A stretch of DNA of 64,000 bases from an archaeon (GTDB taxonomy: Archaea; Nanobdellota; Nanobdellia; Pacearchaeales; GW2011-AR1). Below the pieces are notes generated by a model. It ran no database searches, was not told where the DNA came from, and saw only the letters and a program-made list of their open reading frames with translations. The DNA is taken from positions 97,049 to 161,048 of the forward strand of contig JABHLR010000005.1 of assembly GCA_018693315.1 (NCBI GenBank). Direction: 5' to 3'. Shown piece by piece: positions 27,302 to 52,151 of the stretch (positions are counted from its first letter, which is position 1; every line of letters begins with the position of its first letter). The translations under genes were made by a program, and so were the position numbers.

Positions 27302-28204
27302 CTAGTTGCGGCGTCTACGTCTCAGTGCTGCCAGTCCGCCGAGTGCCAAGAGTGACATTGTGGCGGGTTCGGGTACGGCTGTGGGACTAAGCGGTATTGC
27401 GGAGTTAAACGCGGCGAGAAAATCCGGGTCGCTATCTACTAGCGTGAGGTCGAAATATGCGTTGATCTCCATGCCGTCCCAAACGGTCTTGTTGCTGTTT
27501 TCGTCCCAGACCGTGTGGGTATAGTCGTCTACCCACAGGCGTGCGTTGTCGATTTCGGCCAGGGCGAACCAGAAGTCGGCGTTGCCGCGGATATCACCAC
27601 TTATCGTGATTATTGGCTCTTCGTCGTATCCGCCGGGCCACGAGTAGGTTCTGTCGTGTTCCATTGAGCTGTCTGCGCTGAATCGGAGACCGGTGTCGAG
27701 CGGGTCGTTCCAGTTGAGACTACTGTGAGGGTACTCTGTCCAATCGTCGACGTTCTGGTCTACGAAAAGGAATCTGGCTGTGATTTCGACTTGGAATTGA
27801 CCGGTGTTGTTGCGACGCTCGATGTCTACCGAGATTCTTCTAGGCAGGATGTTGGTGTCCATCGCGCCCTGTTCGAGTTCGAATCGGAGCGAGCCGCTAC
27901 ATGACTGTTCGTTGACGTATGTCTTGATGTTGCCGAACTGGTCGATGTACTGCTCTGTTGTTTCCGGCCGGTTTGTCGCGGTCATGCCGATCTCCCATCC
28001 AGGTATAAAGTTAATTTCCTGGTAGATTCGAGCTTCCTCGAAGTAGTGAGGAATAGGTATCGGGCTGCCGGTTGATCCGCCGCCTCCACCGGTGCTGCCG
28101 GAGGGGATGGGGATGATCGGATCGGCCTGCGCGTTGTTTGTAATCGCGAGTGCGATGAGAGTGATGGCGATAGTGGATACGATAGTGCGATTGATTTTCA
28201 ACAT
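27302..28204 (-). CDS. PEP-CTERM-anchored secreted protein
   Basis: N-terminal signal peptide ...ITNNAQA/DP. C-terminus is VPEPATMSLLALGGLAALRRRRRN (PEP motif, TM helix, Arg cluster). Confidence 0.85.
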   Translation of the reverse strand: MLKINRTIVSTIAITLIALAITNNAQADPIIPIPSGSTGGGGGSTGSPIPIPHYFEEARIYQEINFIPGWEIGMTATNRPETTEQYIDQFGNIKTYVNEQSCSGSLRFELEQGAMDTNILPRRISVDIERRNNTGQFQVEITARFLFVDQNVDDWTEYPHSSLNWNDPLDTGLRFSADSSMEHDRTYSWPGGYDEEPIITISGDIRGNADFWFALAEIDNARLWVDDYTHTVWDENSNKTVWDGMEINAYFDLTLVDSDPDFLAAFNSAIPLSPTAVPEPATMSLLALGGLAALRRRRRN

Positions 28205-33881: not shown

Positions 33882-34127
33882 TTACTCCAGAATTCCTGGG
33901 ATTCCTGGAGCGGCTTTCGGCTCTTCTTTTAGCTGTGCGAACGACCATCCTTTTTTAAGGCCGTCGTTTATGAACACGGCAGATGCTGTTCCAAGTAAGA
34001 TCGAAGCAATTATGCAAAATATTCCGCCCCAGAAATAGTTTCGCATTAGTTTCGGTGCTACTCGAATCATGAGGAGTACTGCGATGGCTGCGAGAACGAC
34101 GCCGATAAGTAGTTCGATTATACCCAT
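33882..34127 (-). CDS. small membrane protein (2 TM)
   Basis: GAAAGGAG 7 nt before the ATG. MGIIELLIGVVLAAIAVLLMI and FWGGIFCIIASILLGTASAVF. Confidence 0.65.
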   Translation of the reverse strand: MGIIELLIGVVLAAIAVLLMIRVAPKLMRNYFWGGIFCIIASILLGTASAVFINDGLKKGWSFAQLKEEPKAAPGIPGILE

Positions 34128-34147
34128 TATTGGGCTCCTTTCTGCGT

Positions 34148-34354
34148 TTAGTCGGTTGTCGAGAGTTTGCCCATTTCATCGTAGAGCATTTGCGTTGTGA
34201 TTCCTTCTCTTGTACGGAAGGTTTTTACAAATGCTGCTAGAATGTCTTGCATTTCTCGGCAGTTCGATGATTGAGGGAGGCCGCCCTCGTCTAGACGTGC
34301 CTTTAGGAACGTTGCTTCTGCTGGCATTATTCCAACGGTTGCGAAGTCGTCCAT
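34148..34354 (-). CDS. small soluble hypothetical protein (68 aa)
   Basis: AAAAGGAT 7 nt before the ATG. Tightly packed with its neighbours. Confidence 0.55.
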   Translation of the reverse strand: MDDFATVGIMPAEATFLKARLDEGGLPQSSNCREMQDILAAFVKTFRTREGITTQMLYDEMGKLSTTD

Positions 34355-34391
34355 ACGCTTTATCCTTTTCTTCTAGAGTTTCTGATACAGG

Positions 34392-34454
34392 GGCATGCGG
34401 CAGGGTGCACCAGCTAATGGAACCGGTGCAGCCTACTTCGTGTCTCTGCGTGGG
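34392..34454 (-). repeat. 63-bp intergenic repeat, copy 1
   Basis: ggcatgcggcagggtgcaccagctaatggaaccggtgcagcctacttcgtgtctctgcgtggg. Differs at 1 nt from 34728..34790. Ends just before the stop codon of 34456..34686 (1 nt between). Confidence 0.85.
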
Positions 34455-34455
34455 G

Positions 34456-34686
34456 TTAATTTGATGGGCCCCTCTTCTTGACTTCCGTCAGTATTTTGCG
34501 GAAGGTTTCAATATTCAAGCTTCCCCATACTCGGAAGGTGGCTTTGAAACTCCTTAGGGCTTCCGTTATTATTGCGTCATCTACTTCTGGAAAGCCCTTG
34601 TTTCGTATCAAGAAGATCCTTAAGTGACCTTCTTCGCTCGGGCCTATTCGTTTCATTATGTCGGAAATAGTATCGACTTTTGCCAT
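34456..34686 (-). CDS. small soluble hypothetical protein (76 aa)
   Basis: GAAAGGAG 8 nt before the ATG at 34686 (MAKVDTISD...). Confidence 0.6.
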   Translation of the reverse strand: MAKVDTISDIMKRIGPSEEGHLRIFLIRNKGFPEVDDAIITEALRSFKATFRVWGSLNIETFRKILTEVKKRGPSN

Positions 34687-34727
34687 CGCGCTTGCTCCTT
34701 TCGAGCTTAGAATTTTCGGTTTACAAA

Positions 34728-34790
34728 GGCATGCGGCAGGGTGCACCAGCTAATGGAACCGGTGCAGCCTACTTCGTGTCTCTGTGTGGG
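34728..34790 (-). repeat. 63-bp intergenic repeat, copy 2
   Basis: Same 63-mer (c->t at one position). Directly abuts the stop codon of 34791..35168. Confidence 0.85.
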
Positions 34791-35168
34791 TTACTTCTGC
34801 ACTTCGAACTCTCGTGTTCGTTCCGGCGCGCGTATTGTTCCGGCGCGGAGCCATCCCGTATCGCTATGGGAGTTTTCCACGAATATTATGAATTCTTGGC
34901 CGTCTCGAATTACACAATATTTTGTTTGGAAGCTGACGATTCCGGTTGGTTCCTCATTTGAGGGTTCGTTTTCGTTGCGCGCGGTCTCGATTCGTATGAA
35001 CCGGCCCTTAAGATTGTGGATCTCGCCTTCTTCTTGCCCTTCGTGTCTGACAATCTCTACTCCTAGATGGGCATCTTTTCTTGAGTAGGATCTTCGTTCC
35101 CGGCATCCGGCGAGCGTTGTTATCATTACAAGGCTTGCACACACAATAAATCGGGTTGCCTGTTTCAT
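34791..35168 (-). CDS. lipoprotein (125 aa)
   Basis: MKQATRFIVCASLVMITTLAGC has the lipobox LAGC. GAAAGGAG 4 nt before the ATG. Confidence 0.7.
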   Translation of the reverse strand: MKQATRFIVCASLVMITTLAGCRERRSYSRKDAHLGVEIVRHEGQEEGEIHNLKGRFIRIETARNENEPSNEEPTGIVSFQTKYCVIRDGQEFIIFVENSHSDTGWLRAGTIRAPERTREFEVQK

Positions 35169-35206
35169 GAGTCTCCTTTCAGGCGTTAGTACAATTGTCT
35201 TGCGAC

Positions 35207-35281
35207 TGGGAGAGGCAGGATTCGAACCGTTGCAACCGGGTCATTTGAGGTGACCTGCTCTGCCAATTGAGCTACTCTCCC
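35207..35281 (-). tRNA. tRNA-like gene, anticodon UCA (opal-reading, Trp-tRNA-like body); irregular, possibly a pseudo-tRNA
   Basis: Hand fold of the minus strand: acceptor GGGAGAG/CTCTCCC, D arm GCTC-AATTGGCA-GAGC, anticodon arm GGTCA-CCTCAAA-TGACC, T loop TTCGAAT. C at position 33 and a 2-nt bulge in the T stem (GCA-AC-GG vs CCTGC) are atypical. No encoded CCA. Confidence 0.55.
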
Positions 35282-35404
35282 GGTTGGCCAGGCGCTCCTG
35301 TGGGGGGAGACAGGATGGAGGCGGGGGGGACCTCTGCCCGACCGGGTAGTTCATCATTGCAGGTGATGCTATGACTAGCTACCGTTTGATTTCGACGGGT
35401 TGGA

Positions 35405-35644
35405 CTAGGCTTTGATGTCGGACTTTATGATGCATTCTCTGCAGGGGTTGCTGCTGCGGCTATTATCTGCTGCGAAAACTTCATGGCCCTTGCTGCATCT
35501 GGCGACAGCTTCGATGGTGCTTTTTCTGGCTGTGACTTTTTCGTTCGCTTCTTGGTCGGTTTTGTTATGACCAGTACAACGACGGTCGGCTTTTCGGATC
35601 CAGTTCTTAAATCCATTCGTGAGATCATAGCACAATCCTTTCAT
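35405..35644 (-). CDS. small Cys-containing hypothetical protein (frame ambiguous)
   Basis: The ATG at 35644 lies 1 nt after the upstream stop (coupling). The alternative overlapping frame 35425..35628 has AAAGGA 7 nt upstream of its ATG. I cannot choose between them from sequence. Confidence 0.35.
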   Translation of the reverse strand: MKGLCYDLTNGFKNWIRKADRRCTGHNKTDQEANEKVTARKSTIEAVARCSKGHEVFAADNSRSSNPCRECIIKSDIKA

Positions 35645-35645
35645 G

Positions 35646-35987
35646 CTAACGGGGTTTCTTCTTTGCGGGGGCGAGGATTGCGCCGGTCTTTCTGTTGACT
35701 CGGTATCCTGCCTTGGAGTAACCTATCGTGGCGATGTCGCTTTGCGCGGCAGTTGGTTCGCCTATTTTGTAGACATTTCCATCTTCATCGATGTCGTATA
35801 TATCTGACCATGCTGACGGGTCGTTGATATTTTTGTGTGTCAGCTTTGGCTTCTGTGGTGCGGCGTTTGTAGTCGGAACGCTTTTATCTGTTCCGGCGGG
35901 GTTAGCGATGATGTCCTTGCTTGCGAACTGCACGAATGCGGCTGCGATTGCAAGGAATATGAGCACTGCTGCGAATTTTCGGTTCAC
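35646..35987 (-). CDS. secreted hypothetical protein (113 aa)
   Basis: GTG start 6 nt after GAAAGGAG. Signal-like MNRKFAAVLIFLAIAAAFVQFAS. Confidence 0.6.
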   Translation of the reverse strand: MNRKFAAVLIFLAIAAAFVQFASKDIIANPAGTDKSVPTTNAAPQKPKLTHKNINDPSAWSDIYDIDEDGNVYKIGEPTAAQSDIATIGYSKAGYRVNRKTGAILAPAKKKPR

Positions 35988-36255
35988 TGTGAGCTCCTTT
36001 CATTTAGCCTGAGCACATTGCGGCGAAGGATAGTAGTGTGAAAAACAATACTTTTCTTCTGTGCTTTGCTTCTTCTGATGTACCGAACATTTGTTTCTCC
36101 TCCGGCTGTGAGCGTTAGGGGTTTTAACGGTTACTGAATATTACCTCTCTTGGAGGGCATATCCTGGAATCGTTGTTAATAGTAGACCCCGGGGCACTGG
36201 CGGGTTCGGACAGTGGGAAAAGTGCGCCCGGGGTCTCTGGTTCGTGTTGCGACTG

Positions 36256-36444
36256 TTAGGCTTCGTCCGGCTTTTTCTTCCCTGTTCCCTTGAGTGCTTC
36301 GCTACATACCTTTCTGCACTCTGGACATTCCATATTATCTCTAACCAGATTATGGAATTCGTTGAGATCTCTCTCTTTCGCTGCCTGTAGCTGTTTGGCC
36401 GTCAGGTGCGAATGCTCTGCCTTTGCTTCTTGCGTCTGTTGCAT
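36256..36444 (-). CDS. small protein with a CxxC motif (62 aa)
   Basis: MQQTQEAKAEH...MECPECRKVCSE. GGAG upstream. A GACCCCGGG/CCCGGGGTC hairpin lies downstream. Confidence 0.5.
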   Translation of the reverse strand: MQQTQEAKAEHSHLTAKQLQAAKERDLNEFHNLVRDNMECPECRKVCSEALKGTGKKKPDEA

Positions 36445-36616
36445 CTTTACGCTCCATCTGAGGTTTTCGAATTAACGACTTGTTGCTAGGATCCTTTCGC
36501 ATAAAGCTTCGCACTTTTCGCAGCCAATTATTGACATGGCTACTACGAGAAGGGTCCCGTCTTTGTGGAAGGCGATAGCATCGTCCTCCGTGAGGCATTC
36601 GTGATCAAGCAATGGT

Positions 36617-36964
36617 CTAGATCTCCTTATCTAGGGGTTGTGGCGATTCGGCTACGCGGTTCGTTGTTGCGCTCGCCGAGCTGGTATATCTTTTTGCGTC
36701 ATAGGACAGATATGATTTTCCTGCCCAGATGACTGCTACGAGCGCTAGGGTTGATATTACTCCTAAGGCTGTGTACTGGACGCGCTCTCTGCCCAGGACG
36801 ATTACGTGGCGGAAACATGCGACTGCGAGTGCGGCCATAATGAGACCCAGTGTGACGATTGCCGCGAATTGTACAGATCCGCAAGGGCCCGATATACAGA
36901 GCACAAAGAAGAAAAGGAATACGGCAATCCCGGCGAGTACTGCGGTTGTTTTGAAGCTATTCAT
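36617..36964 (-). CDS. membrane protein (3-4 TM)
   Basis: GAAAGGAG 6 nt before the ATG. The 28-nt translation-initiation region is nearly identical to that of 40948..41382. Confidence 0.65.
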   Translation of the reverse strand: MNSFKTTAVLAGIAVFLFFFVLCISGPCGSVQFAAIVTLGLIMAALAVACFRHVIVLGRERVQYTALGVISTLALVAVIWAGKSYLSYDAKRYTSSASATTNRVAESPQPLDKEI

Positions 36965-37011
36965 GGCATTCTCCTTTCATGAGGTTGCCAATTTTAGTGA
37001 TTGTAGCACAT

Positions 37012-37055
37012 GGGTACCCCAACGGTGAGTTGTTGAGGTACCCATCTGCGGTGCG
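37012..37055 (-). repeat. partial copy (distal hairpin only) of the ~140-bp leader element
   Basis: gggtaccccaacggtgagttgttgaggtacccatctgcggtgcg. 12-bp stem with 1 mismatch. Shares the GTTGAGGTACCCATCTGCGGT core with copies A-E. Confidence 0.7.
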
Positions 37056-37071
37056 ACCAGGACTAGTCAGG

Positions 37072-37863
37072 TTACTGGAGACTAACGGACCTTTCCGTAA
37101 CCTTGTCGATTTCTTCGACTATCTGCTCTAGAGACTTGATTGTCCTGCGAGGCATTCTCATTGCCTTCAGGCTTTTCTCTAAAACTTTTACTTCTTTTAG
37201 AAGCTCGATATCTTCTTTTTCGTTAACCAGAGCTTCTTCGGCAGCTTCGAGCAGGTTGACCTTGAGGTTTCTGCCGTTCTTGAGGATTTTTAGCGTCTCC
37301 TCGTCGGTGGTCTTTGCTATCTTGATGTTGTGCTTCTTCAGGTCTTCTTTTTGAGACTTAATGATAGCTTCTCGTTCTTTGACTACTGCTTCGCAGCTTT
37401 CGATTATTTCGTCGTAGATGGAAGTTGTATCGTTTTTGTCGATTTTCGGCTGGGTTGTTGCCGGGGGCCTGGTGCCTTTTATTGTTTTCCCGGTAAGTTC
37501 CATCGGAACGACGATTTCCATGATGGGTTCTTGAAACGACTTGGGGTCGGGGTTGTCGCTGACGTCGAAGATTCGGATTGTTTTCCCTCTTAGCTCTTTG
37601 TAGTGACCGAAGGTGTCCAGTGGCATGACCTTGAAGTACCAGTCTTTTACTTCTCCTTTGCCGTCGTTGCTCCATGCTTCGATCATTAAGGTGGATTTTC
37701 CGAAGTTTACGATTCGTCCTCCGTGACCGTAATTGAGGCTGGTGAGGGTGATGCCGATTTGGTCATCTCTGAAAACTTCCTGGTCTGCGCTGTCAGTTCT
37801 GTTGCATCCGGCGAACGCTGCTACGAGGCTCACACACACGATAAGTGTTGTTAGATTCTTCAT
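37072..37863 (-). CDS. lipoprotein with C-terminal coiled-coil region (263 aa)
   Basis: MKNLTTLIVCVSLVAAFAGC (lipobox FAGC). GAAAGGAC 6 nt before the ATG at 37863. K/E-rich helical C-terminus. Confidence 0.7.
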   Translation of the reverse strand: MKNLTTLIVCVSLVAAFAGCNRTDSADQEVFRDDQIGITLTSLNYGHGGRIVNFGKSTLMIEAWSNDGKGEVKDWYFKVMPLDTFGHYKELRGKTIRIFDVSDNPDPKSFQEPIMEIVVPMELTGKTIKGTRPPATTQPKIDKNDTTSIYDEIIESCEAVVKEREAIIKSQKEDLKKHNIKIAKTTDEETLKILKNGRNLKVNLLEAAEEALVNEKEDIELLKEVKVLEKSLKAMRMPRRTIKSLEQIVEEIDKVTERSVSLQ

Positions 37864-38010
37864 GGGTTTGTCCTTTCTGGACATTAAATATAGAGAGGGC
37901 CCGGGGCACCTAGCGGGAGGCTAGTATGAATGTGCGTCTGAGCCATCTCTGTTTGGGTGAGTTAATTCTTTCACGAGAGAGAATGTTTTGAAAACTGCTG
38001 GGGTTGTGGT

Positions 38011-39096
38011 TTAGATGTCGGTCATGATACATTCGGCGGGGGCCAAGAGCATGTATGAGAACTCATAATCCATGCTATCGGAAGTGTTGTCAAGGACTAC
38101 GAACGATTTCCCGTTGATTTCGACCGTGTTGCCGAATTCTACTTCTTTGTCTATTCTTTCTGGAAGCATAGGAATCTTTTTTGCTGTTGCGCAGTCAATA
38201 TGCTTTGCATATTTGAACACCGGAATTTCGAACACTTTGGGAACGTCGATTACCAGTGAGACTCCTGTGTTATGCGGCGGGGCGAGCTCGGGTTCCTCTT
38301 CTTGTGCTGCTCTGACGATTGAGGAGAGCGGGACAGGGCCGTTTTTTACGGGTGCAGCGGTAAAGCATTCGGTGAAAGCGGCGGCCAGTGCCTTTCCTTC
38401 ATCTGTTTCCAGATTGGCAAAACAGAGCGCCAAGCGGAGAAAGAAGTCTTTTACCGTTGCAATTAGAGGCCAATTACGATATAACATGATATTGTCCTTT
38501 GCGAAAGATTGTCTGTTTTTTGTGGAAGTGCCGGCGCTGAATACTGCCATTATGATGCGCTCTAATGCTTGACAGATGGAATCTGTATCTTCATCAGAGA
38601 CACTCAGTAAGGCATCAATCGCGTTCATCCCACTCGTGTCTATTGGAATTTGAATGAATTTTACAAGTTCTTCGCCGCCTTCGCTTTTGAAGTATTCTCT
38701 TGTTAGTTCTTCGTCATCGCATGCACATGTGGCATAAACTTCGCCATTCTTTGTTTCCAGTATTGCAACGTTGATCGTTTCGCATTTCTGAGGTTCTTGT
38801 TGATTGTTTGGTTCGTTACGTTTCGGAACTTCCTGTTCCACATCTTCCTGTTTGCTGGTGTCGTTCATGACATCCGTTGCCCTTGTCACAGTTCTACCTC
38901 TCTCTTGTGTTGTGCCTAAGAGAAAGGTGACATTCTGTCCTTGGAAGAGCTCAATATTATCATGAGTGGATCCTACCTCAACTCTCTTGTCATTGAGTTC
39001 TTCCTGCCTAGAGTCTTTGATTCTAACTTTCCAGACCCATTTACCGCCTTTTTTGTCTTTGCCTAGTACGAAGCCTTTTATTCTTGCCTGTTCCAT
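38011..39096 (-). CDS. hypothetical protein (361 aa), largest island ORF
   Basis: Preceded by leader copy A with AGGAG 8 nt before the ATG. No motif recognised. Confidence 0.65.
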   Translation of the reverse strand: MEQARIKGFVLGKDKKGGKWVWKVRIKDSRQEELNDKRVEVGSTHDNIELFQGQNVTFLLGTTQERGRTVTRATDVMNDTSKQEDVEQEVPKRNEPNNQQEPQKCETINVAILETKNGEVYATCACDDEELTREYFKSEGGEELVKFIQIPIDTSGMNAIDALLSVSDEDTDSICQALERIIMAVFSAGTSTKNRQSFAKDNIMLYRNWPLIATVKDFFLRLALCFANLETDEGKALAAAFTECFTAAPVKNGPVPLSSIVRAAQEEEPELAPPHNTGVSLVIDVPKVFEIPVFKYAKHIDCATAKKIPMLPERIDKEVEFGNTVEINGKSFVVLDNTSDSMDYEFSYMLLAPAECIMTDI

Positions 39097-39238
39097 TGCC
39101 TTTTCTCCTGTCTTGGGATCCTACCTGGATCCGGCCTTCCATGTGCTTTTCTCCGGACTTTGGACCGGTACATCCAAACATATGGACGTAGTGCATTAAT
39201 ACCCCAACTATGAGAGCTGTTGAGGTACCCATCTGCGG
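39097..39238 (-). repeat. ~140-bp hairpin-rich leader element, copy A
   Basis: Spans from the start codon of 38011..39096 to the stop codon of 39239..39526. Contains the GGATCC-N5-GGATCC, ACGTCCA/TGGATGT and TACCTCAAC/GTTGGGGTA stems (minus strand). Confidence 0.9.
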
Positions 39239-39526
39239 TTATTCTATGTCTATCTCTTGGGCGACTTTTCGTGTTCCACATTTGAAGAGAATTCTTGCAT
39301 CATCTTCACTGAACATCTTAATAAGCTCTTGCTTGTCTCCTGCTCCTTCGACGAATAGGAGACCTGTTTCTTCGTTTTTCCCGTCTGTGCCGAATGCTAT
39401 TTCCACGCCGGCAGGGTTGATGAAGCGGATACTACGGGCTTCACCAGGATTATCGTTCTCTTCTATTCTGATGCAATCCGCTAGGCGCATTTGTGCTGTT
39501 TCGACTGTCAGTTCGCTCGTTTTCAT
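39239..39526 (-). CDS. hypothetical protein (95 aa), paralogue of 40515..40796
   Basis: Start set at MKTSELTVE (GAAGGA upstream). The longer ORF-track N-terminus only translates the repeat. Core ADCIRIEE..NPGEARSIRFINPAGVEIAFGTDG is shared with the paralogue. Confidence 0.65.
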   Translation of the reverse strand: MKTSELTVETAQMRLADCIRIEENDNPGEARSIRFINPAGVEIAFGTDGKNEETGLLFVEGAGDKQELIKMFSEDDARILFKCGTRKVAQEIDIE

Positions 39527-39668
39527 GATTAAATCCTTCATTTTGGAATCCTTCCTGGATTCGGCCTTCCATGTGTCTTTTATCCGGACTTTGGACCGGT
39601 ACATCCAAACATATGGACGTAGTGCATTAATACCCCAACTATGAGTTGTTGAGGTACCCATCTGCGGT
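39527..39668 (-). repeat. ~140-bp leader element, copy B
   Basis: Same element. The proximal stem carries a compensatory pair change (GAATCC/GGATTC instead of GGATCC/GGATCC). Confidence 0.9.
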
Positions 39669-39783
39669 GCGGCGAATGAGGTTGCAGATCTAAAGGAGTT
39701 GGTTTCTTTGAGATACAATGCGGACCGAGCTTCCTTAGCAAGCGTTACTCACTATTGTAGCTCGGTTCTAAGAACTCATGAAC

Positions 39784-39939
39784 CTAGTAGCTGCACCGGT
39801 TCATTGCAATTCCTAGATCATGTGTGAATGATTTTGTTGATTTGTAGTAAAGTATGACTGCTGCAATCGCAATGCCAGTCAAACCAAAAATTGCTACAAA
39901 TACCAAACCATTCATAACCGGCGTAACCCATTTAATCAT
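39784..39939 (-). CDS. small single-TM protein (51 aa)
   Basis: Hand translation: MIKWVTPVMNGLVFVAIFGLTGIAIAAVILYYKSTKSFTHDLGIAMNRCSY. CAGGAG lies 6 nt upstream, inside leader copy C. An ACCGAGCT/AGCTCGGT hairpin follows the stop. Confidence 0.5.
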   Translation of the reverse strand: MIKWVTPVMNGLVFVAIFGLTGIAIAAVILYYKSTKSFTHDLGIAMNRCSY

Positions 39940-40079
39940 TTTTGACTCCTGTCTTGGGATCCTTCCTGGATCCAGCCTTCCATGTGCTTTTCTCCGGACT
40001 GTGGACCGGTATAGCTACACAAGTAACTATAGTGCATTAATACCCCAACTATGAGAGCTGTTGAGGTACCCATCTGCGA
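39940..40079 (-). repeat. ~140-bp leader element, copy C
   Basis: Same flanks. The central stem is replaced by TATAGTTA/TAGCTATA, still base-paired (one G.U on the minus strand). Confidence 0.9.
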
Positions 40080-40367
40080 TTATGCTGCTTCTGACATTAG
40101 CGAATGAAATGCGAATTCGTTGGACATCTTTCCAATAAGTCTTTTAACGACCAAGGCTTCTTCGCGTTCGAGTTCGCCTGTCATTTTGTCGATGAGTCTT
40201 CGAACGGCTAAGGCGTCTTTGTAGAAAGAGAAGGTGATTTGTATAAGACCATCGACTTCTTCTACTCTGTGAATCTTACTTCTGATTTCTTCGTTAATCT
40301 TATCAATTGTTCCTTCTGTGCAGAACAGTTTGATTCCGACTGATACGGTGTTTGTGCTAATTAACAT
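40080..40367 (-). CDS. hypothetical protein (95 aa)
   Basis: AAAGGAAAG upstream of the ATG. Has an internal repeat ALAVRRLIDKMTGE / ALVVKRLIGKMSNE. Confidence 0.6.
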   Translation of the reverse strand: MLISTNTVSVGIKLFCTEGTIDKINEEIRSKIHRVEEVDGLIQITFSFYKDALAVRRLIDKMTGELEREEALVVKRLIGKMSNEFAFHSLMSEAA

Positions 40368-40510
40368 GATACTTTCCTTTTTCTTTGGATCCTACCTGGA
40401 TCCAGCCTTCCATGTGCCTTTTATCCGGACTGTGGACCGGTACAATTACACAAGTAATCGTAGTGCATTAATACCCCAATAAGAGTCTATTGGGATATCC
40501 ATCTGCGGTT
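40368..40510 (-). repeat. ~140-bp leader element, copy D
   Basis: Central stem ACGATTAC/GTAATTGT and distal stem CCCAATA/TATTGGG both differ in sequence from the other copies but stay complementary. Confidence 0.9.
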
Positions 40511-40514
40511 ATAT

Positions 40515-40796
40515 TTAGTCTACTTCTTGGACGACTTTTTTCGTTCCATATCCGAAGAGAATCCTGGCCTCATCACAATGGAAATCCCCGACGAGCTCTT
40601 CTTTCTCTCCTGTGCCTTGGACGAACAAGAGACCTGTGTCTTTGTCTTCCCCATCTGTGCCGAATGCTATTTCCACTCCGGCAGGGTTGATGAAGCGGAT
40701 ACTACGGGCTTCACCAGGATTACCATCTTCTTCTATTCTGATGCAATCTGCGAGGAGTTTTTGTGCTGTTTCTAGTGTTAGTTCTTTCGTTTTCAT
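40515..40796 (-). CDS. hypothetical protein (93 aa), paralogue of 39239..39526
   Basis: MKTKELTLETAQKLLADCIRIEEDGNPGEARSIRFINPAGVEIAFGTDG... The ATG at 40796 is preferred over the TTG at 40802. Confidence 0.65.
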   Translation of the reverse strand: MKTKELTLETAQKLLADCIRIEEDGNPGEARSIRFINPAGVEIAFGTDGEDKDTGLLFVQGTGEKEELVGDFHCDEARILFGYGTKKVVQEVD

Positions 40797-40941
40797 AATC
40801 AAATCTTTCTTTTTGGGATCCTACCTGGATCCAGCCTTCCATGTGCCTTTTATCCGGACTGTGGACCGGTACAACCAAACATATGGTTGTAGTGCATTAA
40901 TACCCCAACTATGAGAGCTGTTGAGGTACCCATCTGCGGTT
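40797..40941 (-). repeat. ~140-bp leader element, copy E
   Basis: Central stem ACAACCA/TGGTTGT is perfect and differs from copy A by a compensated pair. Confidence 0.9.
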
Positions 40942-40947
40942 TGGCGA

Positions 40948-41382
40948 TTAGGACTCGGTGGATACGTCATCGGGCTTTTCGGCGGGGGGGAAGCAGGTCG
41001 CACCAATTAAGGCTTCCATCGTATTGTCTCTGAACAGGGCTTTTACGATGACACTAGCGAGCGCTGTTGCTGCGTTCGGAGTGGGAAGGCAGTTGCTTGC
41101 CACGAGTGCTTCGGGCACGATTTCGCCGATGCTTTCGAGCATTTCCTTATCGGAGGGTACTGATGCCTCTCGTCCTTTTTTCGGAGAGGTGGATGCAAGT
41201 GCTGAGACAAGGTGCGAACTCCAGCCCGTGAGCATTTCTGCCAAGAAAGGCGCGGCTTTTTCTGCAATGGCCAGGGATATGTCTTCATTGAAGGGGTTGT
41301 CTCCGTCCGCGTTTTCTTCCTTGATTCCTTGTTGCAGCGATACGATAGTGAAGCTTGTCAGAATTTTTCGATCGTTTGTCAT
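40948..41382 (-). CDS. hypothetical protein (144 aa), first gene of the island
   Basis: GAAAGGAG 6 nt before the ATG. No motif recognised. Confidence 0.6.
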   Translation of the reverse strand: MTNDRKILTSFTIVSLQQGIKEENADGDNPFNEDISLAIAEKAAPFLAEMLTGWSSHLVSALASTSPKKGREASVPSDKEMLESIGEIVPEALVASNCLPTPNAATALASVIVKALFRDNTMEALIGATCFPPAEKPDDVSTES

Positions 41383-41649
41383 GGCGTTCTCCTTTCAAGA
41401 GGTTGCCGGGTTTTTGTCAATAGAACACCATATATGGGTATTCCGGTTTGTTTTTGTTAATAAGACAGTAGCGGAGCTATAGAATTTTTGTTTAATGGAA
41501 ACCTATTCCGTGAAAACTTGTGGTTCTCATAGGGTATTCCTTTGTATTTGTATATCCACGATGTGTTTTTGGTGTGTCAATAAAATTCGGCGTGATGTCG
41601 AATTTGTTGTCTATGTATTCTGTGGATAAAGGGTTATTTGTGAATGTGA

Positions 41650-43614
41650 TTAGTTGGATAGTCGTATTAGTTTCTTCCAACCTTTGTCGTATTTTACTTC
41701 TTCAATTTTGATTAGTCCTTTTTCGTTTAGACCCTTTTTCGCGTTCGTTCCTTTTCTTGCTGAAAGACCGATTTGTCGGTATACCTCAGTTGTACTTAGG
41801 GTGTGATTTGGGTTTTTTTGCAAGAATTCCATGAAGACTTGCTCATCAGTATTTAGCTCTGAATGTACTCCCTTTTTAGTGACATCATTCCTTTTAAATG
41901 TTACTACTAGTTGGTTCTCAAACGCCTTGTTGATAGCTGTCATAATATCTGAGGATGTGTAATTTCCTTGCGCCTTACTCTTTTCTAATGTGTTTTCAAT
42001 GTCTTTCAGATCTATTCCTGCCTTTGTGTGGTCGACGATAAAGTCGTGTAGTGTTTGCTGGACTTCTGTTAGATTGATCTCTGGCTTGGATTCGATGATT
42101 GGATTCTCAGTTGGCTTAGATTCAAATATATCTTGCTTTGTTTTTATTGTTTTTGGTTCGACTGGTTTTGCCACTACCTCTTTGGGTTTTTCGATTGCTT
42201 TGTTGAATTCTGGGTCTATTTCCTTCTCGTACTCTTGGTTCATTATCATTGCTTGCATTCTTGATTTGATGTCTTCGTCTGTTATGTCTTTTTTTCGTGT
42301 TTCTACGTAAGGGACTTCGATTAAGAAAGGAGAGGTATACCGCTCTGATAGCTTTACGATCGCTGTTCCTACTTGTAGTGCGGAGAAGTAGTGTTTATTT
42401 TCTCTTAGACTCATAATTTCGCTTATGTCGTAAATATCTTGAGGTAGCTGTTGCTGGAATGCGATGTGACATGCGGAGTTACCTTTAACTGTGTCGGAGA
42501 TTTTTGAGATATGTTGGTCTAGACAGACTAAACTTGTTCCATACTCTCGCATCTCTCGGTAAATCATGTCGGTTGTGGACTCGTTTGTAAAGTTTGTTGG
42601 CTTATTTAGGAAGATATTATGCGCCTCGTCGACGATGATTGCGTGATCAAAACCGTTGCTTGCATAGTTTTGTCGTGCCTTTTTCATCTTATAGATATAT
42701 GTTAAAACAAATTCACAGAAGAATTTCTTTTCGATTCCACCGAGTGAGTTCAGTTCCATAACTACTTTTTTGTCTAATAGTTCTTCGACTGAAACACTAT
42801 TTTCACCTTTGTAGTTTACAGTTTTACCAAATTCACCAAATGTCATAACTGTTGCGATTCTTATTGCGGATTCCAACCATCCTGCTTCTCGTCCGCCCAC
42901 CTTGTCAACTTTCTCTTCTAGTCTCCATTTGATATGGTTCCATGTTGGGTAGTTTTCTGATCCGTTGTAGATTCCCCATTCTTTGAAGGACTGGTCTAGT
43001 GTTTCTAGGATTACTTTATGGACACCGAACGATGCGGAAAAACTTTCAGTTAGTAAATCTGCTAGAACGTTGATCCATTCTTTTGGGGCTACACCTTTTG
43101 GGGGTTGGTTTATGTTTGTTTTAAATAGGTTGGATACTTTGTCCTCACCGACGGTAAAAGTCATGATTGAGTTGTCGTCTGCTGAAAGTGGCCGGAATGA
43201 TTTCTTCCAATCGAAGATCAGGTACGGTTTATTTTTCTTATTTAGCGCTTCGACTATTTTGAAGGCGAAAGTTGTTTTACCGGAACCGGACATTCCTGTG
43301 ATACAGATATGTCGTGGCCAATCTTTTTCTCTTAGGTTGAAGTCGAACATTTTTCTTTGTGCGTAACTGATTGTTGCAAGTGTGTAATCTCCGTCAATTA
43401 CGCCTGCTCTTGGGGGTTCTAGTAAAACTCCTTTGTCTAGTAATTGATTTAGATGTTTTTGGTATAATGCGTTTAGAATGTGTTCGATTTCTTCTCGTTC
43501 TTCTCGGCCGTCTGCTACGGTATACTGGAAATACATCTGATCTACTTTCTCGCCGAAAACAGGTCTAAGTTTGTTACAGATTTCTTCTACGGTTAGGGGT
43601 TTTTGGAATACCAT
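41650..43614 (-). CDS. HerA/FtsK-superfamily P-loop ATPase (DUF87-like) with C-terminal winged-helix-like domain
   Basis: Walker A GMSGSGKTT, Walker B AIIVDEAHN. C-terminus LSTTEVYRQIGLSARKGTNAKKGLNEKGLIKIE. Host-like AT-rich composition. Confidence 0.8.
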   Translation of the reverse strand: MVFQKPLTVEEICNKLRPVFGEKVDQMYFQYTVADGREEREEIEHILNALYQKHLNQLLDKGVLLEPPRAGVIDGDYTLATISYAQRKMFDFNLREKDWPRHICITGMSGSGKTTFAFKIVEALNKKNKPYLIFDWKKSFRPLSADDNSIMTFTVGEDKVSNLFKTNINQPPKGVAPKEWINVLADLLTESFSASFGVHKVILETLDQSFKEWGIYNGSENYPTWNHIKWRLEEKVDKVGGREAGWLESAIRIATVMTFGEFGKTVNYKGENSVSVEELLDKKVVMELNSLGGIEKKFFCEFVLTYIYKMKKARQNYASNGFDHAIIVDEAHNIFLNKPTNFTNESTTDMIYREMREYGTSLVCLDQHISKISDTVKGNSACHIAFQQQLPQDIYDISEIMSLRENKHYFSALQVGTAIVKLSERYTSPFLIEVPYVETRKKDITDEDIKSRMQAMIMNQEYEKEIDPEFNKAIEKPKEVVAKPVEPKTIKTKQDIFESKPTENPIIESKPEINLTEVQQTLHDFIVDHTKAGIDLKDIENTLEKSKAQGNYTSSDIMTAINKAFENQLVVTFKRNDVTKKGVHSELNTDEQVFMEFLQKNPNHTLSTTEVYRQIGLSARKGTNAKKGLNEKGLIKIEEVKYDKGWKKLIRLSN

Positions 43615-43616
43615 GT

Positions 43617-44051
43617 TTAATCAGATAGAATTTTTCCAAGCATTTCTGCACGGCTTTCTTTTTCATTTAGCTCTTTGGAATTTTCTCGGAGCTCTTTTTT
43701 TAGTAATGCAATATCTCTCCAACATCCAATTTTTTCGTTAAGCTGTAGTTCTGAGATTTCGATTTGTTTCTTTCTTAACTCTGCCCTTTCTCGTGCAAAT
43801 TCTGAGTCATCCTCTCCTTTTGGTGCGTTTTCTAATAGAAAATTATGAATTTTATTTTTCATACCCTCGCCTTCTTTTACAAATTTCTTGCTTAGAATTT
43901 TTCGTTCGGTGATCATTTCATCTACTTCTACGATAAGATCTTTAAGGGAATCTACCTTTGCTTTTCCTACTGAATCGAATCCTTCAGACGTATTCCAGGT
44001 ATTCTCTGCGTCGTATTTCTGAGGTATTCCATTTTTATTCGGGTTTTCCAT
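43617..44051 (-). CDS. coiled-coil hypothetical protein (144 aa)
   Basis: Heptad-rich sequence. Its stop lies 2 nt before the ATPase start, so the two are probably co-transcribed. Confidence 0.6.
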   Translation of the reverse strand: MENPNKNGIPQKYDAENTWNTSEGFDSVGKAKVDSLKDLIVEVDEMITERKILSKKFVKEGEGMKNKIHNFLLENAPKGEDDSEFARERAELRKKQIEISELQLNEKIGCWRDIALLKKELRENSKELNEKESRAEMLGKILSD

Positions 44052-48805: not shown

Positions 48806-48876
48806 TGACCCCACCAAGAATCGAACTTGGGACTACTCGGTGTAAACGAGTCGTTTTGCCACTAGACTATGGGGTC
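48806..48876 (-). tRNA. tRNA-Val (anticodon UAC)
   Basis: Hand fold: acceptor GACCCCA/TGGGGTC, anticodon arm ACTCG-TTTACAC-CGAGT, T arm CCAAG-TTCGATT-CTTGG. One C.A mismatch in the D stem. Confidence 0.85.
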
Positions 48877-51314: not shown

Positions 51315-52151
51315 ATGCCATCTGTTAATAGAGATGCTTTAAAGGGAAGGGAGCTTTCTGCTGTTTGGAAGGATTATCGAGCTGGCAAAAGGAAAGGTGA
51401 TGGAGTTCATTTTAGGAATGTTTTGCTTATGTTTTATTCGCCCTATATTGACTATACAGCTGAGAGGCTTAAGTCCAGATTGCCGGATTCCATAGATGTT
51501 AATGACTTGAAGGTTGCTGGGTCATTTGGAATGATGGATGCGTTGAAGAAGTATAACTCCAAAAAGGGAGTTAGGTTTTGGACATATGCTAATCCAAAAG
51601 TGAAGGGGGCCATGATTGATGAGCTTAGGCGTTTTGATTATGTTCCAAGGTTGGCGCGAGAGAGGAAGAATCATTTTAACGAAGCGGAGACTTTGTTGAG
51701 GTTTAAGTTGGGGAGAAATCCTAGCAGGAGCGAATTAAAAAGAGAATTAACTAAGAAAGTTTATTCCACCACCGGTAAGGCTGGCTGGAAGAATGCCGAT
51801 AAGATTTTGGGGGAGGCTGATCGCTTTTTTGGTATTCATAGTTTGAGTAGGAAGAAACATGATGGGGACAATAAGGAAATTTTGGAAATTGATAGTATTA
51901 ATAATGGTTCTGATCATGTCGGTGATTTTGGAAGTTCTGATTTATTTAGGGCGATGTTGAGAGGATGTTCTCATGATGAAGAGTTGTTGTTGAGGTTGCG
52001 CTACCAGGAAGGATTTAACAATAGGGAAATTTCTGATGTTATCGGTGTTGCTCCGAGTCGGGTGAGTCAGGTTCATACTGATCTTATGAGGCGATTGAAG
52101 GGAATTGCTCTGAGACATAAAGATGCTGGGGCGATTGAAAGATTATTCTAG
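51315..52151 (+). CDS. sigma-70 family sigma factor (group 3, FliA/sigma-28-like)
   Basis: Region 2: DLKVAGSFGMMDALKKYNSKKGVRFWTYANPKVKGAMIDELRR. Region 4 HTH: EELLLRLRYQEGFNNREISDVIGVAPSRVSQVHTDLMRRLK. Confidence 0.8.
   Translation: MPSVNRDALKGRELSAVWKDYRAGKRKGDGVHFRNVLLMFYSPYIDYTAERLKSRLPDSIDVNDLKVAGSFGMMDALKKYNSKKGVRFWTYANPKVKGAMIDELRRFDYVPRLARERKNHFNEAETLLRFKLGRNPSRSELKRELTKKVYSTTGKAGWKNADKILGEADRFFGIHSLSRKKHDGDNKEILEIDSINNGSDHVGDFGSSDLFRAMLRGCSHDEELLLRLRYQEGFNNREISDVIGVAPSRVSQVHTDLMRRLKGIALRHKDAGAIERLF

What the first reader, a model, noticed from the sequence alone, without database searches (positions are those of the whole stretch)
39097..40941. Five ~140-bp structured leader elements, each fused to a different small ORF, with compensatory stem changes
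Copies A-E (39097, 39527, 39940, 40368, 40797) fill the whole gap between the stop codon of one minus-strand gene and the start codon of the next. The cassette period is about 415-435 bp. A sixth, partial copy lies at 37012-37055.

Read on the minus strand, each element is: AACCGCAGATGG, distal hairpin, TATTAATGCACT, central hairpin, ACCGGTCCAnAGTCCGGAnAAAAGnCACATGGAAGGC, proximal hairpin GGATCC-N5-GGATCC, then SD and ATG. The flanking blocks are almost invariant, while the stems vary and stay paired.
- Central stem: ACGTCCA/TGGATGT (A, B), ACAACCA/TGGTTGT (E), TATAGTTA/TAGCTATA (C), ACGATTAC/GTAATTGT (D).
- Proximal stem: GGATCC/GGATCC versus GAATCC/GGATTC (B).
- Distal stem: CCTCAAC/GTTGGGG versus CCCAATA/TATTGGG (D).

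The imperfect pairs in A, C and D are G.U on the minus strand but A.C on the plus strand. That points to selection on a minus-sense RNA or single strand.

The cargo genes are unrelated to one another, except for one paralogue pair. Possible roles:
- A portable promoter (TATTAAT is -10-like) plus 5'-terminal stabilising hairpin plus translational-control hairpin.
- A single-strand-active promoter, like the Frpo elements upstream of small anti-defence genes in plasmid leading regions.
- An attC-like recombination site of an integrase-less cassette array.
Basis: seen in the sequence. Interest (0 to 1): 0.8.

Follow-up and report, generated by a model that had tools for sequence, protein, structure and literature searches.

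The report
Twister ribozyme array in DPANN archaeon
The five repeated "leaders" are copies of a known self-cutting RNA, the type-P5 twister ribozyme, sitting between small genes of an uncultured DPANN archaeon; this layout is common in viral contigs, but the archaeal host and an extra, apparently inactive second strand in each copy are unusual.

Summary
In detail: there are five ~145-nt minus-strand repeats plus one relic, each between small ORFs. They are not promoters, Frpo elements or attC sites. All five match Rfam Twister-P5 (RF02684) over the full model, two of them above the gathering score.

- "Distal hairpin" is P1.
- "TATTAATGCAC" is the U^A cleavage site plus P2 and T2.
- "Central hairpin" is the optional P3.
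- "CCGGTCCAnAGTCCGG" is P4/L4.

Across nine distinct copies, 98% of cells pair and eight pairs (in P1 and P3) change on both sides. The catalytic core never varies.

The host is a Woesearchaeota-like DPANN archaeon. The array lies in a chromosomal, hypervariable small-ORF region downstream of a conserved HerA/FtsK-like ATPase. A sister lineage has four copies with different cargo genes.

Same-strand arrays of 4–7 type-P5 twisters just upstream of gene ribosome-binding sites are routine in viral contigs, so the architecture is ordinary.

The unusual part is the 3' extension. It duplicates the P2/T1 strand in type-P1 order, with the active-site G replaced by C. None of 54 viral copies, and none of the sister-lineage copies, has it.

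The likely function is self-cleavage of a polycistronic transcript. The extension may refold onto the 5' end of the downstream product.

The parts
40854..40938 (-). Twister-P5 ribozyme copy E (5' strand 40930-40938, P1 40900-40929, P3 40871-40890, P4/L4 40854-40869). Predicted cleavage is between U40899 and A40898.
   Evidence: RF02684 32.4 bits, model 1-58. Own model R1 103.2 bits. Coordinates.
40425..40507 (-). Twister-P5 ribozyme copy D. Predicted cleavage is at U40470|A40469.
   Evidence: RF02684 31.4 bits, full length. R1 96.9 bits. P1 and P3 differ from the other copies by compensatory changes.
39994..40078 (-). Twister-P5 ribozyme copy C. Predicted cleavage is at U40039|A40038.
   Evidence: RF02684 32.7 bits, full length. 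R1 98.8 bits.
39584..39666 (-). Twister-P5 ribozyme copy B. Predicted cleavage is at U39629|A39628.
   Evidence: RF02684 39.0 bits, above the gathering score of 37.6.
39153..39237 (-). Twister-P5 ribozyme copy A. Predicted cleavage is at U39198|A39197.
   Evidence: RF02684 38.5 bits, above the gathering score of 37.6.
40816..40853 (-). 3' extension of copy E: linker AUAAAAG, second P2/T1 strand GCA-C-AUGG, AAGGC, then hairpin GGAUCC-AGGUA-GGAUCC.
   Evidence: With the 5' strand removed, this stretch plus the core matches Rfam twister-P1 (RF03160) over model 1-68 at 30 bits. An L004 copy without the extension gives no such match.
40387..40424 (-). 3' extension of copy D (same modules).
   Evidence: Alignment. 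Coordinates.
39957..39993 (-). 3' extension of copy C (linker one base shorter).
39546..39583 (-). 3' extension of copy B. The second P2 strand is weakened (ACA instead of GCA). The hairpin GAAUCC/GGAUUC carries one compensatory change.
39116..39152 (-). 3' extension of copy A.
36988..37050 (-). Degenerate sixth copy. It has the 5' strand and P1, but the cleavage-site region is mutated (UACCCAUGUGC), so it pairs with the 5' strand as one long hairpin. There is no P3/P4 core, so it cannot form the pseudoknots.
   Evidence: R1 29.7 bits, E 3e-4. Sequence.
40948..41382 (-). First gene of the unit (144 aa, no family), upstream of copy E.
   Evidence: ORF list. No Pfam or PHROG hit. Called as a gene in public contigs.
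40515..40796 (-). Cargo gene after copy E (93 aa, orphan). Paralogue of the gene after copy B.
   Evidence: Only itself and its paralogue were found among 5.8e9 protein clusters.
40080..40367 (-). Cargo gene after copy D (95 aa, no family).
39784..39939 (-). Cargo gene after copy C (51 aa, predicted membrane peptide).
39239..39526 (-). Cargo gene after copy B (95 aa from ATG 39526; 100 aa if ATG 39541 is used).
38011..39096 (-). Cargo gene after copy A (361 aa, no family).
41650..43614 (-). Conserved HerA/FtsK/CedD-like ATPase (654 aa) that marks the upstream border of the variable small-ORF region.
   Evidence: DUF87 37 bits. 774 homologues, 65-79% identical in Woese-/Pacearchaeota MAGs. Conserved synteny with L35Ae, L10e and a methyltransferase.

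Best explanation
Each repeat is a type-P5 twister self-cleaving ribozyme, with P1 closed by a loop, an optional P3 hairpin and no P5 stem. It is transcribed as part of a long minus-strand polycistronic RNA that runs through a string of small orphan genes in the chromosome of a Woesearchaeota-like DPANN archaeon.

Once P4/L4 has been transcribed, the 5' strand (CGCA-G-AUGG), P1, the U^AAUGC-AC junction and L4 assemble through pseudoknots T1 (UGG.CCA) and T2 (AC.GU). The RNA then cuts itself between U and A.

The upstream mRNA is left ending in the 10-bp P1 hairpin with a 2',3'-cyclic phosphate. The downstream mRNA begins with a 5'-OH followed by P3, P4, the leader and the gene. The array thereby converts one transcript into separately stable, separately translated monocistronic units.

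In this genome only, every copy also carries a 3' extension that repeats the P2/T1 strand in type-P1 order (AUAAAAG-GCA-C-AUGG), with the active-site guanine replaced by C. I infer that it takes the place of the departed 5' strand after cleavage. That would fold the 5' end of the downstream mRNA into an inactive twister-like knot, which could protect the end, block re-ligation, or tune the cleavage rate.

Shown here: family identity, fold, covariation, context, and the rarity of the extension. Inferred: actual cleavage, co-transcription, and the role of the extension.
For: Family match:
- All five copies match RF02684 over model positions 1-58. Two score above the gathering score, the others 31-33 bits.
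- The loss of score comes from the P3 insertion, and pseudoknots are not scored by the model.

Fold:
- On nine distinct copies from two lineages, 98.1% of cells pair, against 23-37% when partners are slid.
- Eight pairs change on both sides, four in P1 and four in P3.
- P2, P4, T1 and T2 are invariant.

Pseudoknots:
- T2 AC.GU is a standard family variant. In 52 viral type-P5 cores, AC goes with GU (20), GC with GC (16), GG with CC (3) and AG with CU (2).
- T1 UGG.CCA is compensatory relative to the usual GGG.CCC (51 of 52 viral cores).

Active site:
- The active-site guanine (O. sativa G45, directly 3' of P2; PMC5408937 Table 1) and the scissile U-A are present in all five copies.

Transcription:
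- G.U pairs fit only the minus-strand RNA.
- The sense strand has three T>=5 runs in 10 kb, against about 50 on the other strand, so few archaeal-type terminators interrupt the unit.

Precedent for the layout:
- Viral contigs carry same-strand arrays of 4-7 type-P5 twisters, mostly 350-1,800 nt apart. P4 is typically followed within 5-25 nt by an SD and ATG.
- Reviews describe ribozymes clustered around small non-conserved ORFs and propose polycistronic processing (PMC6155905, PMC6765202, PMC10085705).

Extension:
- With the 5' strand removed, the window copy still gives a full-length twister-P1 match at 30 bits.
- The L004 control does not.
- 0 of 54 viral copies and none of the sister-lineage copies have it.
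- CACAUGGAAGGC is invariant across the five copies, while stems, loops and the SD spacer have diverged.
- P1 is dispensable for twister catalysis, and a type-P1 3' fragment keeps both pseudoknots and buries its 5' end (PMC5408937, PMC8782182).
Against: - No cleavage assay or transcript data are available. Activity, co-transcription and promoter position are all inferred.
- Three of the five copies score below the Rfam gathering score.
- P2 is only 3 Watson-Crick pairs, although most viral type-P5 copies share this.
- No P5 stem is detectable.
- Some copies in the sister lineage are decaying: an active-site G to A change in L037, and core mutations in the fourth copy of L003 and L004. Selection is therefore not uniform.
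- The five window copies are recent duplicates of one another. Invariance of the extension could partly reflect gene conversion.
- Copy B's second P2 strand is weakened (ACA).
- Nested MFE folding forms the second-strand P2 in only one of the five 3' products. The pseudoknots cannot be modelled with the tools available.
- The extension could instead be a decaying relic of an ancestral type-P1 strand.
Confidence: 0.8

Rival explanations
1. The repeats matter mainly as DNA. As about 145 bp of near-identical sequence at every gene boundary, they serve as homologous-recombination substrates that shuffle, duplicate and delete small-gene cassettes, in the way promoter/stem-loop cassettes do in T4-type phages. 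The ribozyme is only what the repeat happens to encode. This could hold alongside the ribozyme function.
For: - Cargo genes are unrelated apart from one duplicated gene-plus-twister unit (D3, 300 nt at 86% identity).
- The sister lineage, whose ATPase is 91% identical, has entirely different cargo between its twisters.
- The region is hypervariable among relatives.
- The cargo is an orphan.
Against: - Compensatory changes in P1 and P3, invariant catalytic nucleotides and G.U-only pairing show selection on the RNA fold, not merely on DNA identity.
- The copies have diverged in their stems, which reduces recombination efficiency.
- No recombination junctions were observed.
Confidence: 0.2
2. The twister pairs excise each gene as an RNA with a 5'-OH and a 2',3'-cyclic phosphate. 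The archaeal RtcB ligase, or the ribozyme's own reverse reaction, then joins these ends to give circular mRNAs.
For: - Each cargo gene is flanked by two twisters in the same orientation.
- The end chemistry produced by twister cleavage is that of RtcB substrates (established knowledge of RtcB and of nucleolytic ribozymes; PMC8782182 for the ends).
- Ribozyme-flanked units give circular RNAs in eukaryotic retrozymes (PMC7761336, PMC5680766).
Against: - There is no evidence for circles here.
- No RtcB gene was seen in the window.
- The same arrays occur in viral contigs, presumably mostly bacteriophage (hosts not determined here), where no such pathway is known.
- The dead second strand would, if anything, oppose re-ligation.
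Confidence: 0.07
3. The elements are relics of a horizontally acquired virus-type or bacterial-type module and no longer cleave or serve any function. The extension is a decaying remnant of an older type-P1 strand.
For: - The family is confined to one species and one sister lineage. Relatives with 75-79% identical ATPase lack it.
- There is one relic copy in the window, and decaying copies in the sister lineage.
- Bacterial-type genes (sigma-70, PEP-CTERM) are present in the same genome (PMC8204110).
Against: - All five window copies keep every catalytic and pseudoknot nucleotide, while P1, P3, the loops and the spacers have diverged with compensation.
- The array is identical in all same-species contigs retrieved with DNA, which come from several independent samples.
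Confidence: 0.08
4. One reading: a portable promoter with TATTAAT as the -10 box, an Frpo-like single-strand promoter of a plasmid leading region, or an attC-like recombination site of an integrase-less cassette array.
For: TATTAAT resembles a -10 or TATA hexamer. The elements form hairpins and separate small unrelated ORFs.
Against: - TATTAAT is the conserved twister junction, shared with viral twisters that lie mid-operon.
- The host is archaeal (aIF-2 and archaeal GluRS equivalogs above cut-off; aIF5B 86-89% identical to Woesearchaeota MAGs).
- The locus is chromosomal and syntenic next to ribosomal protein genes.
- No integrase, relaxase or conjugation gene was found among about 40 ORFs scanned.
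- The pairing includes two pseudoknots, and G.U pairs that would be A.C on the other strand.
Confidence: 0.03

Closest known systems
Type-P5 twister ribozymes (Rfam RF02684), as found in arrays in viral contigs
   Same: - Same order of elements: P2/T1 strand, closed P1, U^AAUGC junction, T2 dinucleotide, P4 with L4 (CCGGUCC.AAG.CCGG).
- Same position just upstream of a gene.
- Same-strand arrays of 4-7 copies, mostly 350-1,800 nt apart.
   Different: - The host is a DPANN archaeon rather than a bacterium or phage.
- T1 is UGG.CCA rather than GGG.CCC.
- A 20-nt P3 hairpin is present.
- The window copies carry a 37-38 nt 3' extension with a second P2/T1 strand and a hairpin, which pushes the SD to roughly 45-55 nt beyond P4. 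This extension is absent from 54 viral copies.
Type-P1 twister ribozymes (Rfam RF03160; O. sativa Osa-1-4, env22)
   Same: The core plus the 3' extension reproduces the type-P1 order: P4, UAAA linker, P2 3' strand, N-A, T1 strand. It gives a full-length match to the model.
   Different: - The score (30 bits) is far below the gathering score of 67.2.
- The P1 3' strand does not pair.
- The active-site G is replaced by C in all five copies. This strand should therefore be inactive (role of G45 from PMC5408937).
Clustered hammerhead ribozymes flanking small non-conserved ORFs in bacteria, phages and some archaea
   Same: Several self-cleaving ribozymes lie close together between small orphan genes. 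The proposed role is processing of polycistronic RNA (PMC6155905, PMC6765202).
   Different: This is a different ribozyme class. No hammerhead or any other class was detected in this window, even at permissive thresholds.
Promoter-early stem-loop (PeSL) cassettes of T4-type phages (recalled from memory, not tested here)
   Same: Repeated regulatory intergenic modules flank small, fast-evolving genes and probably promote modular shuffling.
   Different: PeSLs are a promoter plus a terminator-like stem-loop acting at the DNA/transcription level. The elements here are catalytic RNAs with pseudoknots.

Membership tests
Twister ribozyme (Rfam clan CL00120) | Covariance-model match at or above the curated gathering score | tested here: met
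   Copies B (39.0 bits) and A (38.5 bits) exceed the RF02684 gathering score of 37.6. C, E and D score 32.7, 32.4 and 31.4 bits, all full length with E <= 8e-4 in a 4.2-kb search. Sister-lineage copies score 38.8-45.4 bits.
Twister ribozyme (Rfam clan CL00120) | Essential stems P1, P2 and P4, supported by covariation | tested here: met
   98.1% of cells paired. P1 has four pairs changed on both sides. P2 and P4 are invariant, so they are uninformative but always paired. The slid controls give 23-37%.
Twister ribozyme (Rfam clan CL00120) | Two pseudoknots: T1 (L4 with L1, 3 bp) and T2 (L2 dinucleotide with L4, 2 bp) | tested here: met
   T1 UGG.CCA and T2 AC.GU pair in all nine copies. Both are compensatory relative to the GGG.CCC and GC.GC forms. 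T2 covaries across 52 viral cores. Definitions are from PMC5408937.
Twister ribozyme (Rfam clan CL00120) | Conserved catalytic nucleotides: scissile U-A with the A as general acid, and an active-site guanine directly 3' of P2 | tested here: met
   U^AAUGC and GCA-G-A are present in all five window copies. Roles are taken from PMC5408937 Table 1 (G45 and A7 in O. sativa).
Twister ribozyme (Rfam clan CL00120) | Site-specific self-cleavage giving 2',3'-cyclic phosphate and 5'-OH ends | not testable with these tools
   Requires an in vitro cleavage assay or end-specific RNA-seq.
Type-P5 permutation of twister | P1 closed by a loop; chain enters at the P2/T1 strand and leaves after P4 | tested here: met
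   The order of elements is shown in the cmscan alignments.
Type-P5 permutation of twister | A P5 stem formed by the sequences flanking the 5' and 3' ends | tested here: not met
   There is no complementarity between the bases upstream of CGCAG and those downstream of P4, in the window or in L004. Rfam's model does not include P5. Functionally this is an open P5.
Integron attC site | An integron integrase (IntI) nearby, and an imperfect palindrome with R''/L''-L'/R' boxes and extrahelical bases | tested here: not met
   No tyrosine recombinase was found among about 40 ORFs scanned with Pfam or NCBIfam. The fold is a multi-stem pseudoknot, not a single bottom-strand hairpin.
Frpo-type single-strand promoter of plasmid leading regions | Location in the leading region next to oriT/relaxase of a conjugative plasmid; a long hairpin that mimics a double-stranded -35/-10 promoter | tested here: not met
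   The locus is an archaeal chromosome, syntenic with ribosomal protein genes. There is no relaxase.

The most novel reading that the evidence does not exclude
The window copies are two-state twisters. A catalytically competent 5' strand performs the cut. A built-in dead mimic of that strand (active-site G replaced by C, placed in type-P1 order after P4) then captures the core. The downstream mRNA would be born with its 5'-OH end locked inside an inactive twister-like double pseudoknot.

That would make this a natural example of a ribozyme carrying its own product-trapping or end-capping strand. It would also be a possible first documented twister array in an archaeon.
Probability: 0.35. Interest if true: 0.65.

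Novelty: new variant of a known kind. Interest (0 to 1): 0.42.

Why it matters
The biological purpose of the thousands of twister and hammerhead ribozymes in prokaryotes and their viruses is still unsettled (PMC6765202).

This locus adds three things:
- It shows the virus-type "ribozyme before every small gene" architecture inside the chromosome of a DPANN archaeon. My searches turned up no report of self-cleaving ribozymes in that group.
- It provides two sister lineages with the same ribozyme and different cargo. That gives a natural comparison for cassette turnover.
- It provides a natural variant in which a second, apparently inactive copy of the catalytic strand has been added and conserved.

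If the added strand shapes the 5' end of the cleaved mRNA, the structure of the cleavage products, rather than the cut alone, may be what selection acts on. That is an experimentally testable idea about why these ribozymes exist.

Tried and rejected
1. Integrated mobile element bounded by tRNA-Val (48806-48876) and a UCA-anticodon tRNA (35207-35281). Rejected. The ATPase, L35Ae, L10e and methyltransferase block is conserved and syntenic in many Woese-/Pacearchaeota genomes. No integrase was found.

2. Exact-pattern searches for this twister subtype. There were 0 hits in IMG/VR and 0 in GTDB representative genomes. Only two metagenome contigs matched, both from one sister lineage.

3. Relatives with 75-79% identical ATPase (L035, L038-L040). 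These have no twister or other ribozyme at gathering score. They have tRNAs among the small ORFs instead.

4. Other ribozyme classes in the variable region (25.8-38.1 kb) at E <= 5. None found.

5. Function of the cargo genes. There were no Pfam, PHROG or NCBIfam hits. The 93-aa protein is an orphan.

6. Nested MFE folding as a test of the second strand. Inconclusive. P2' forms in one of five 3' products, and the pseudoknots cannot be modelled.

7. My initial T1/T2 labels were swapped. I corrected them from PMC5408937.

8. The original twister paper (PMC3867598) is not held. Its statement on phylogenetic distribution could therefore not be checked. I do not claim the absence of earlier archaeal reports as fact.
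Full report
OBSERVATION. Reading 36.8-41.4 kb on the minus strand shows five near-identical intergenic elements of about 145 nt. Their 5' ends are at 40938, 40507, 40078, 39666 and 39237, giving spacings of 431, 429, 412 and 429 nt. Each ends at the ATG of a small minus-strand ORF. Four of the five start within a few bases of the preceding stop codon. Copy B is preceded by about 115 nt of unrelated, hairpin-forming sequence. A sixth, degenerate copy lies at 36988-37050.

IDENTITY. Rfam cmscan of the whole window returns two Twister-P5 (RF02684) matches above the gathering score: B at 39.0 bits and A at 38.5 bits, against 37.6. A permissive scan returns all five copies as full-length matches (model 1-58), with C, E and D at 32.7, 32.4 and 31.4 bits.
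- "AACCGCAGATGG" contains the P2 3' strand (GCA), the active-site G-A, and the T1 strand (UGG).
- The "distal hairpin" is P1, closed by a loop, which is the hallmark of the P5 permutation.
- "TATTAATGCACT" is the end of P1, the scissile U^A, the P2 5' strand (UGC) and the T2 dinucleotide (AC).
- The "central hairpin" is the optional P3.
- "ACCGGTCCAnAGTCCGG" is P4 with loop L4.

I took the pseudoknot names and the catalytic assignments from the twister review PMC5408937. These are the O. sativa G45 directly 3' of P2, and the cleavage site U6-A7.

FOLD AND COVARIATION. A metagenome pattern scan found a sister lineage (L003, L004; later L036, L037) with four more copies. On the nine distinct cores, the twister structure including both pseudoknots pairs in 98.1% of cells, against 23-37% for slid controls. 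Eight pairs change on both sides, four in P1 and four in P3. P2, P4, T1 and T2 never vary. The G.U pairs are compatible only with the minus-strand RNA.

Relative to the family consensus, T1 (UGG.CCA instead of GGG.CCC) and T2 (AC.GU instead of GC.GC) are each double, compensatory changes. In 52 distinct viral type-P5 cores, T2 covaries: AC with GU 20 times, GC with GC 16, GG with CC 3, AG with CU 2. T1 is GGG.CCC in 51 of them and CGG.CCG in one. The dinucleotide directly follows UGC in most of these, so the 3-bp P2 seen here is normal for this permutation. I conclude with high confidence that these are genuine twister ribozymes. Self-cleavage itself was not tested.

CONTEXT. The window is a public metagenome contig, JGI 3300004111 Ga0008651_10000054. 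It encodes archaeal aIF-2 and archaeal GluRS, both above the NCBIfam equivalog cut-offs, plus aIF2-gamma and other housekeeping genes. Its aIF5B is 86-89% identical to that of Candidatus Woesearchaeota MAGs and 74-82% identical to Pacearchaeota/Nanoarchaeota MAGs. The host is therefore a DPANN archaeon.

I first suspected a tRNA-flanked integrated element. That is wrong. The 654-aa HerA/FtsK/CedD-like ATPase upstream of the array has 774 homologues, the closest of them 65-79% identical and found in these archaea. It always follows the genes for L35Ae, L10e and a methyltransferase. What varies is the stretch downstream of the ATPase. That stretch holds small, mostly membrane, secreted or orphan ORFs on one strand. 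It spans about 16 kb here and under 5 kb in L039. No integrase, relaxase or conjugation gene is present in the window.

All contigs of the same species retrieved with DNA carry an identical array. The sister lineage, whose ATPase is 91% identical, has twisters between different genes, one of them a sigma-70 family protein. Relatives at 75-79% ATPase identity have none.

HOW ORDINARY IS THE ARRAY? A consensus type-P5 pattern matched 47 stretches of IMG/VR contigs. Rfam scanning of ten of those loci gave 40 Twister-P5 hits above the gathering score. They form same-strand arrays of four to seven copies, mostly 350-1,800 nt apart: seven each in L069 and L075, six in L068, five in L051 and L079. 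In nearly all of them, P4 is followed within about 5-25 nt by a Shine-Dalgarno sequence and a start codon. This is the same layout as the sister-lineage copies.

Reviews already note that prokaryotic self-cleaving ribozymes cluster with each other, near phage-like genes, and around small non-conserved ORFs. Processing of polycistronic RNA has been proposed but not proven (PMC6155905, PMC6765202, PMC10085705). The architecture is therefore known. The host lineage is the new element. My literature searches found no report of self-cleaving ribozymes in DPANN archaea. The original twister paper could not be read, so I do not claim priority.

THE 3' EXTENSION. Only the window's copies continue after P4 with A(U/G)AAAAG(G/A)-CACAUGGAAGGC, followed by a 6-bp hairpin (GGAUCC-N5-GGAUCC, with one compensatory change in copy B). 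With the 5' strand cut away, the rest of copy E gives a full-length match to the type-P1 twister model at 30 bits. AUAAAA aligns to the type-P1 linker, GGCA to the P2 3' strand, CAUGG to the L1/T1 strand, and AAGG to P1. The same experiment on an L004 copy gives only a 17-bit local hit on P4.

Each window copy therefore holds two alternative strands that can complete the core. The 5' strand (GCA-G-AUGG) has the active-site guanine. The 3' strand (GCA-C-AUGG) has C at that position in all five copies.

None of 54 viral type-P5 copies has such a motif. A GCA-N-A-UGG motif within a few allowed offsets is expected by chance about 2e-4 times per element (my estimate). The 12-nt block CACAUGGAAGGC is invariant, while P1, P3, their loops and the SD spacer have diverged.

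Because the 5' strand and the whole core are transcribed first, and because the sister lineage manages without the 3' strand, I take the 5' strand to be the catalytic one. I take the 3' strand to be an inactive mimic. After cleavage, the 5' product is held only by 3+3 base pairs. The mimic can replace it and fold the 5'-OH end of the downstream mRNA into a twister-like knot. The literature notes that the type-P1 3' fragment keeps both pseudoknots and buries its 5' end (PMC8782182), and that P1 is dispensable (PMC5408937).

This part is inference. Nested MFE folding neither supports nor refutes it. Copy B's mimic is weakened. Gene conversion among recent duplicates could inflate the apparent conservation.

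MECHANISM. The sense strand is almost devoid of T>=5 runs, with three in 10 kb against about 50 on the other strand. Read-through from a start in the 267-nt gap after the ATPase gene across the whole array is therefore plausible. Each twister would cut at U|A (coordinates). The upstream mRNA would keep a 3'-terminal P1 hairpin with a cyclic phosphate. The downstream mRNA would have a 5'-OH leader containing P3, P4 and, in this genome, the mimic strand and hairpin ahead of the SD. The sixth copy has lost its core and has become a plain long hairpin.

RIVALS.
- A DNA-level role of the repeats in cassette shuffling is compatible with the data and may coexist with the ribozyme function.
- Circular mRNAs made by ligation of the ribozyme ends are possible but unsupported.
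- Non-functional relics are unlikely, given the pattern of constraint.
- The promoter, Frpo and attC readings fail on host, context and fold.

VERDICT. This is a real feature that is now explained: a tandem array of known type-P5 twister ribozymes. The architecture is ordinary for viral genomes. What is new is the occurrence in a DPANN archaeal chromosome and a conserved second, catalytically dead strand. That makes it a modest variant of a known kind, with one testable mechanistic idea.

Noticed in passing
window 35207-35281 (-): A canonical-type tRNA (RF00005, 57.5 bits) with anticodon UCA, which reads UGA, and C instead of U at position 33. It sits among the small ORFs of the variable region. 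ARAGORN labels it tRNA-SeC, but it is 75 nt long and matches the general tRNA model. It may be an opal suppressor. Relatives L035, L038 and L039 also have tRNA genes among the small ORFs downstream of the ATPase.
   Followed up: partly
window 34386-34454 and 34722-34790: A 69-nt direct repeat (96% identical). Each copy lies directly after the stop codon of a minus-strand ORF. The minus-strand RNA folds into a long imperfect hairpin (z -3.0 and -4.3), with compensatory differences in the outer stem. There is no Rfam match. It could be another intergenic processing or termination element.
   Followed up: partly
window 37885-37985 (-); L004 6140-6240 (-): Intergenic regions upstream of genes in both lineages fold into strong hairpins (z -3.2 and -5.1). 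They share a similar layout (AACAGAGA, long GC-rich stem, CUCU, UAUUAA). There is no Rfam match.
   Followed up: partly
window 51315-52151 (+); L004 6803-7726 (-): Sigma-70 family genes in an archaeal genome. The L004 gene (307 aa, TIGR02937 above cut-off) lies between two twisters. Sigma-70 genes in Woesearchaeota have been reported before (PMC8204110). A PEP-CTERM motif protein lies at window 27302-28204.
   Followed up: partly
L037 3630-3713; L004 3577-3658; L003 4084-4165: Strain-level decay of twister copies in the sister lineage. One copy has the active-site G mutated to A (UGCAAAUGG). The fourth copy carries different core mutations in two strains (UAAUACAC in L004, CCGGGCC in L003).
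   Followed up: yes
window 34000-44000: Extreme strand asymmetry of T-runs. There are three runs of T>=5 on the minus (sense) strand against about 50 on the plus strand. This is consistent with avoidance of oligo-T termination signals in one long transcription unit.
   Followed up: partly
window 39668-39790 (-): The roughly 115-nt spacer between the 51-aa ORF and twister B contains a long, nearly perfect hairpin (ACCGAGCU...AGCUCGGU; z -2.1 for the whole stretch). It shares the motif GAACCGGTGCAGC with the 69-nt repeat at 34.4/34.7 kb, in the opposite orientation.
   Followed up: no
L069, L075, L068, L051, L079, L047 (IMG/VR contigs): Same-strand arrays of 4-7 type-P5 twister ribozymes above the Rfam gathering score, mostly 350-1,800 nt apart. 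Each lies just upstream of an SD and start codon. These make a useful comparison set for the biology of ribozyme-punctuated operons.
   Followed up: partly
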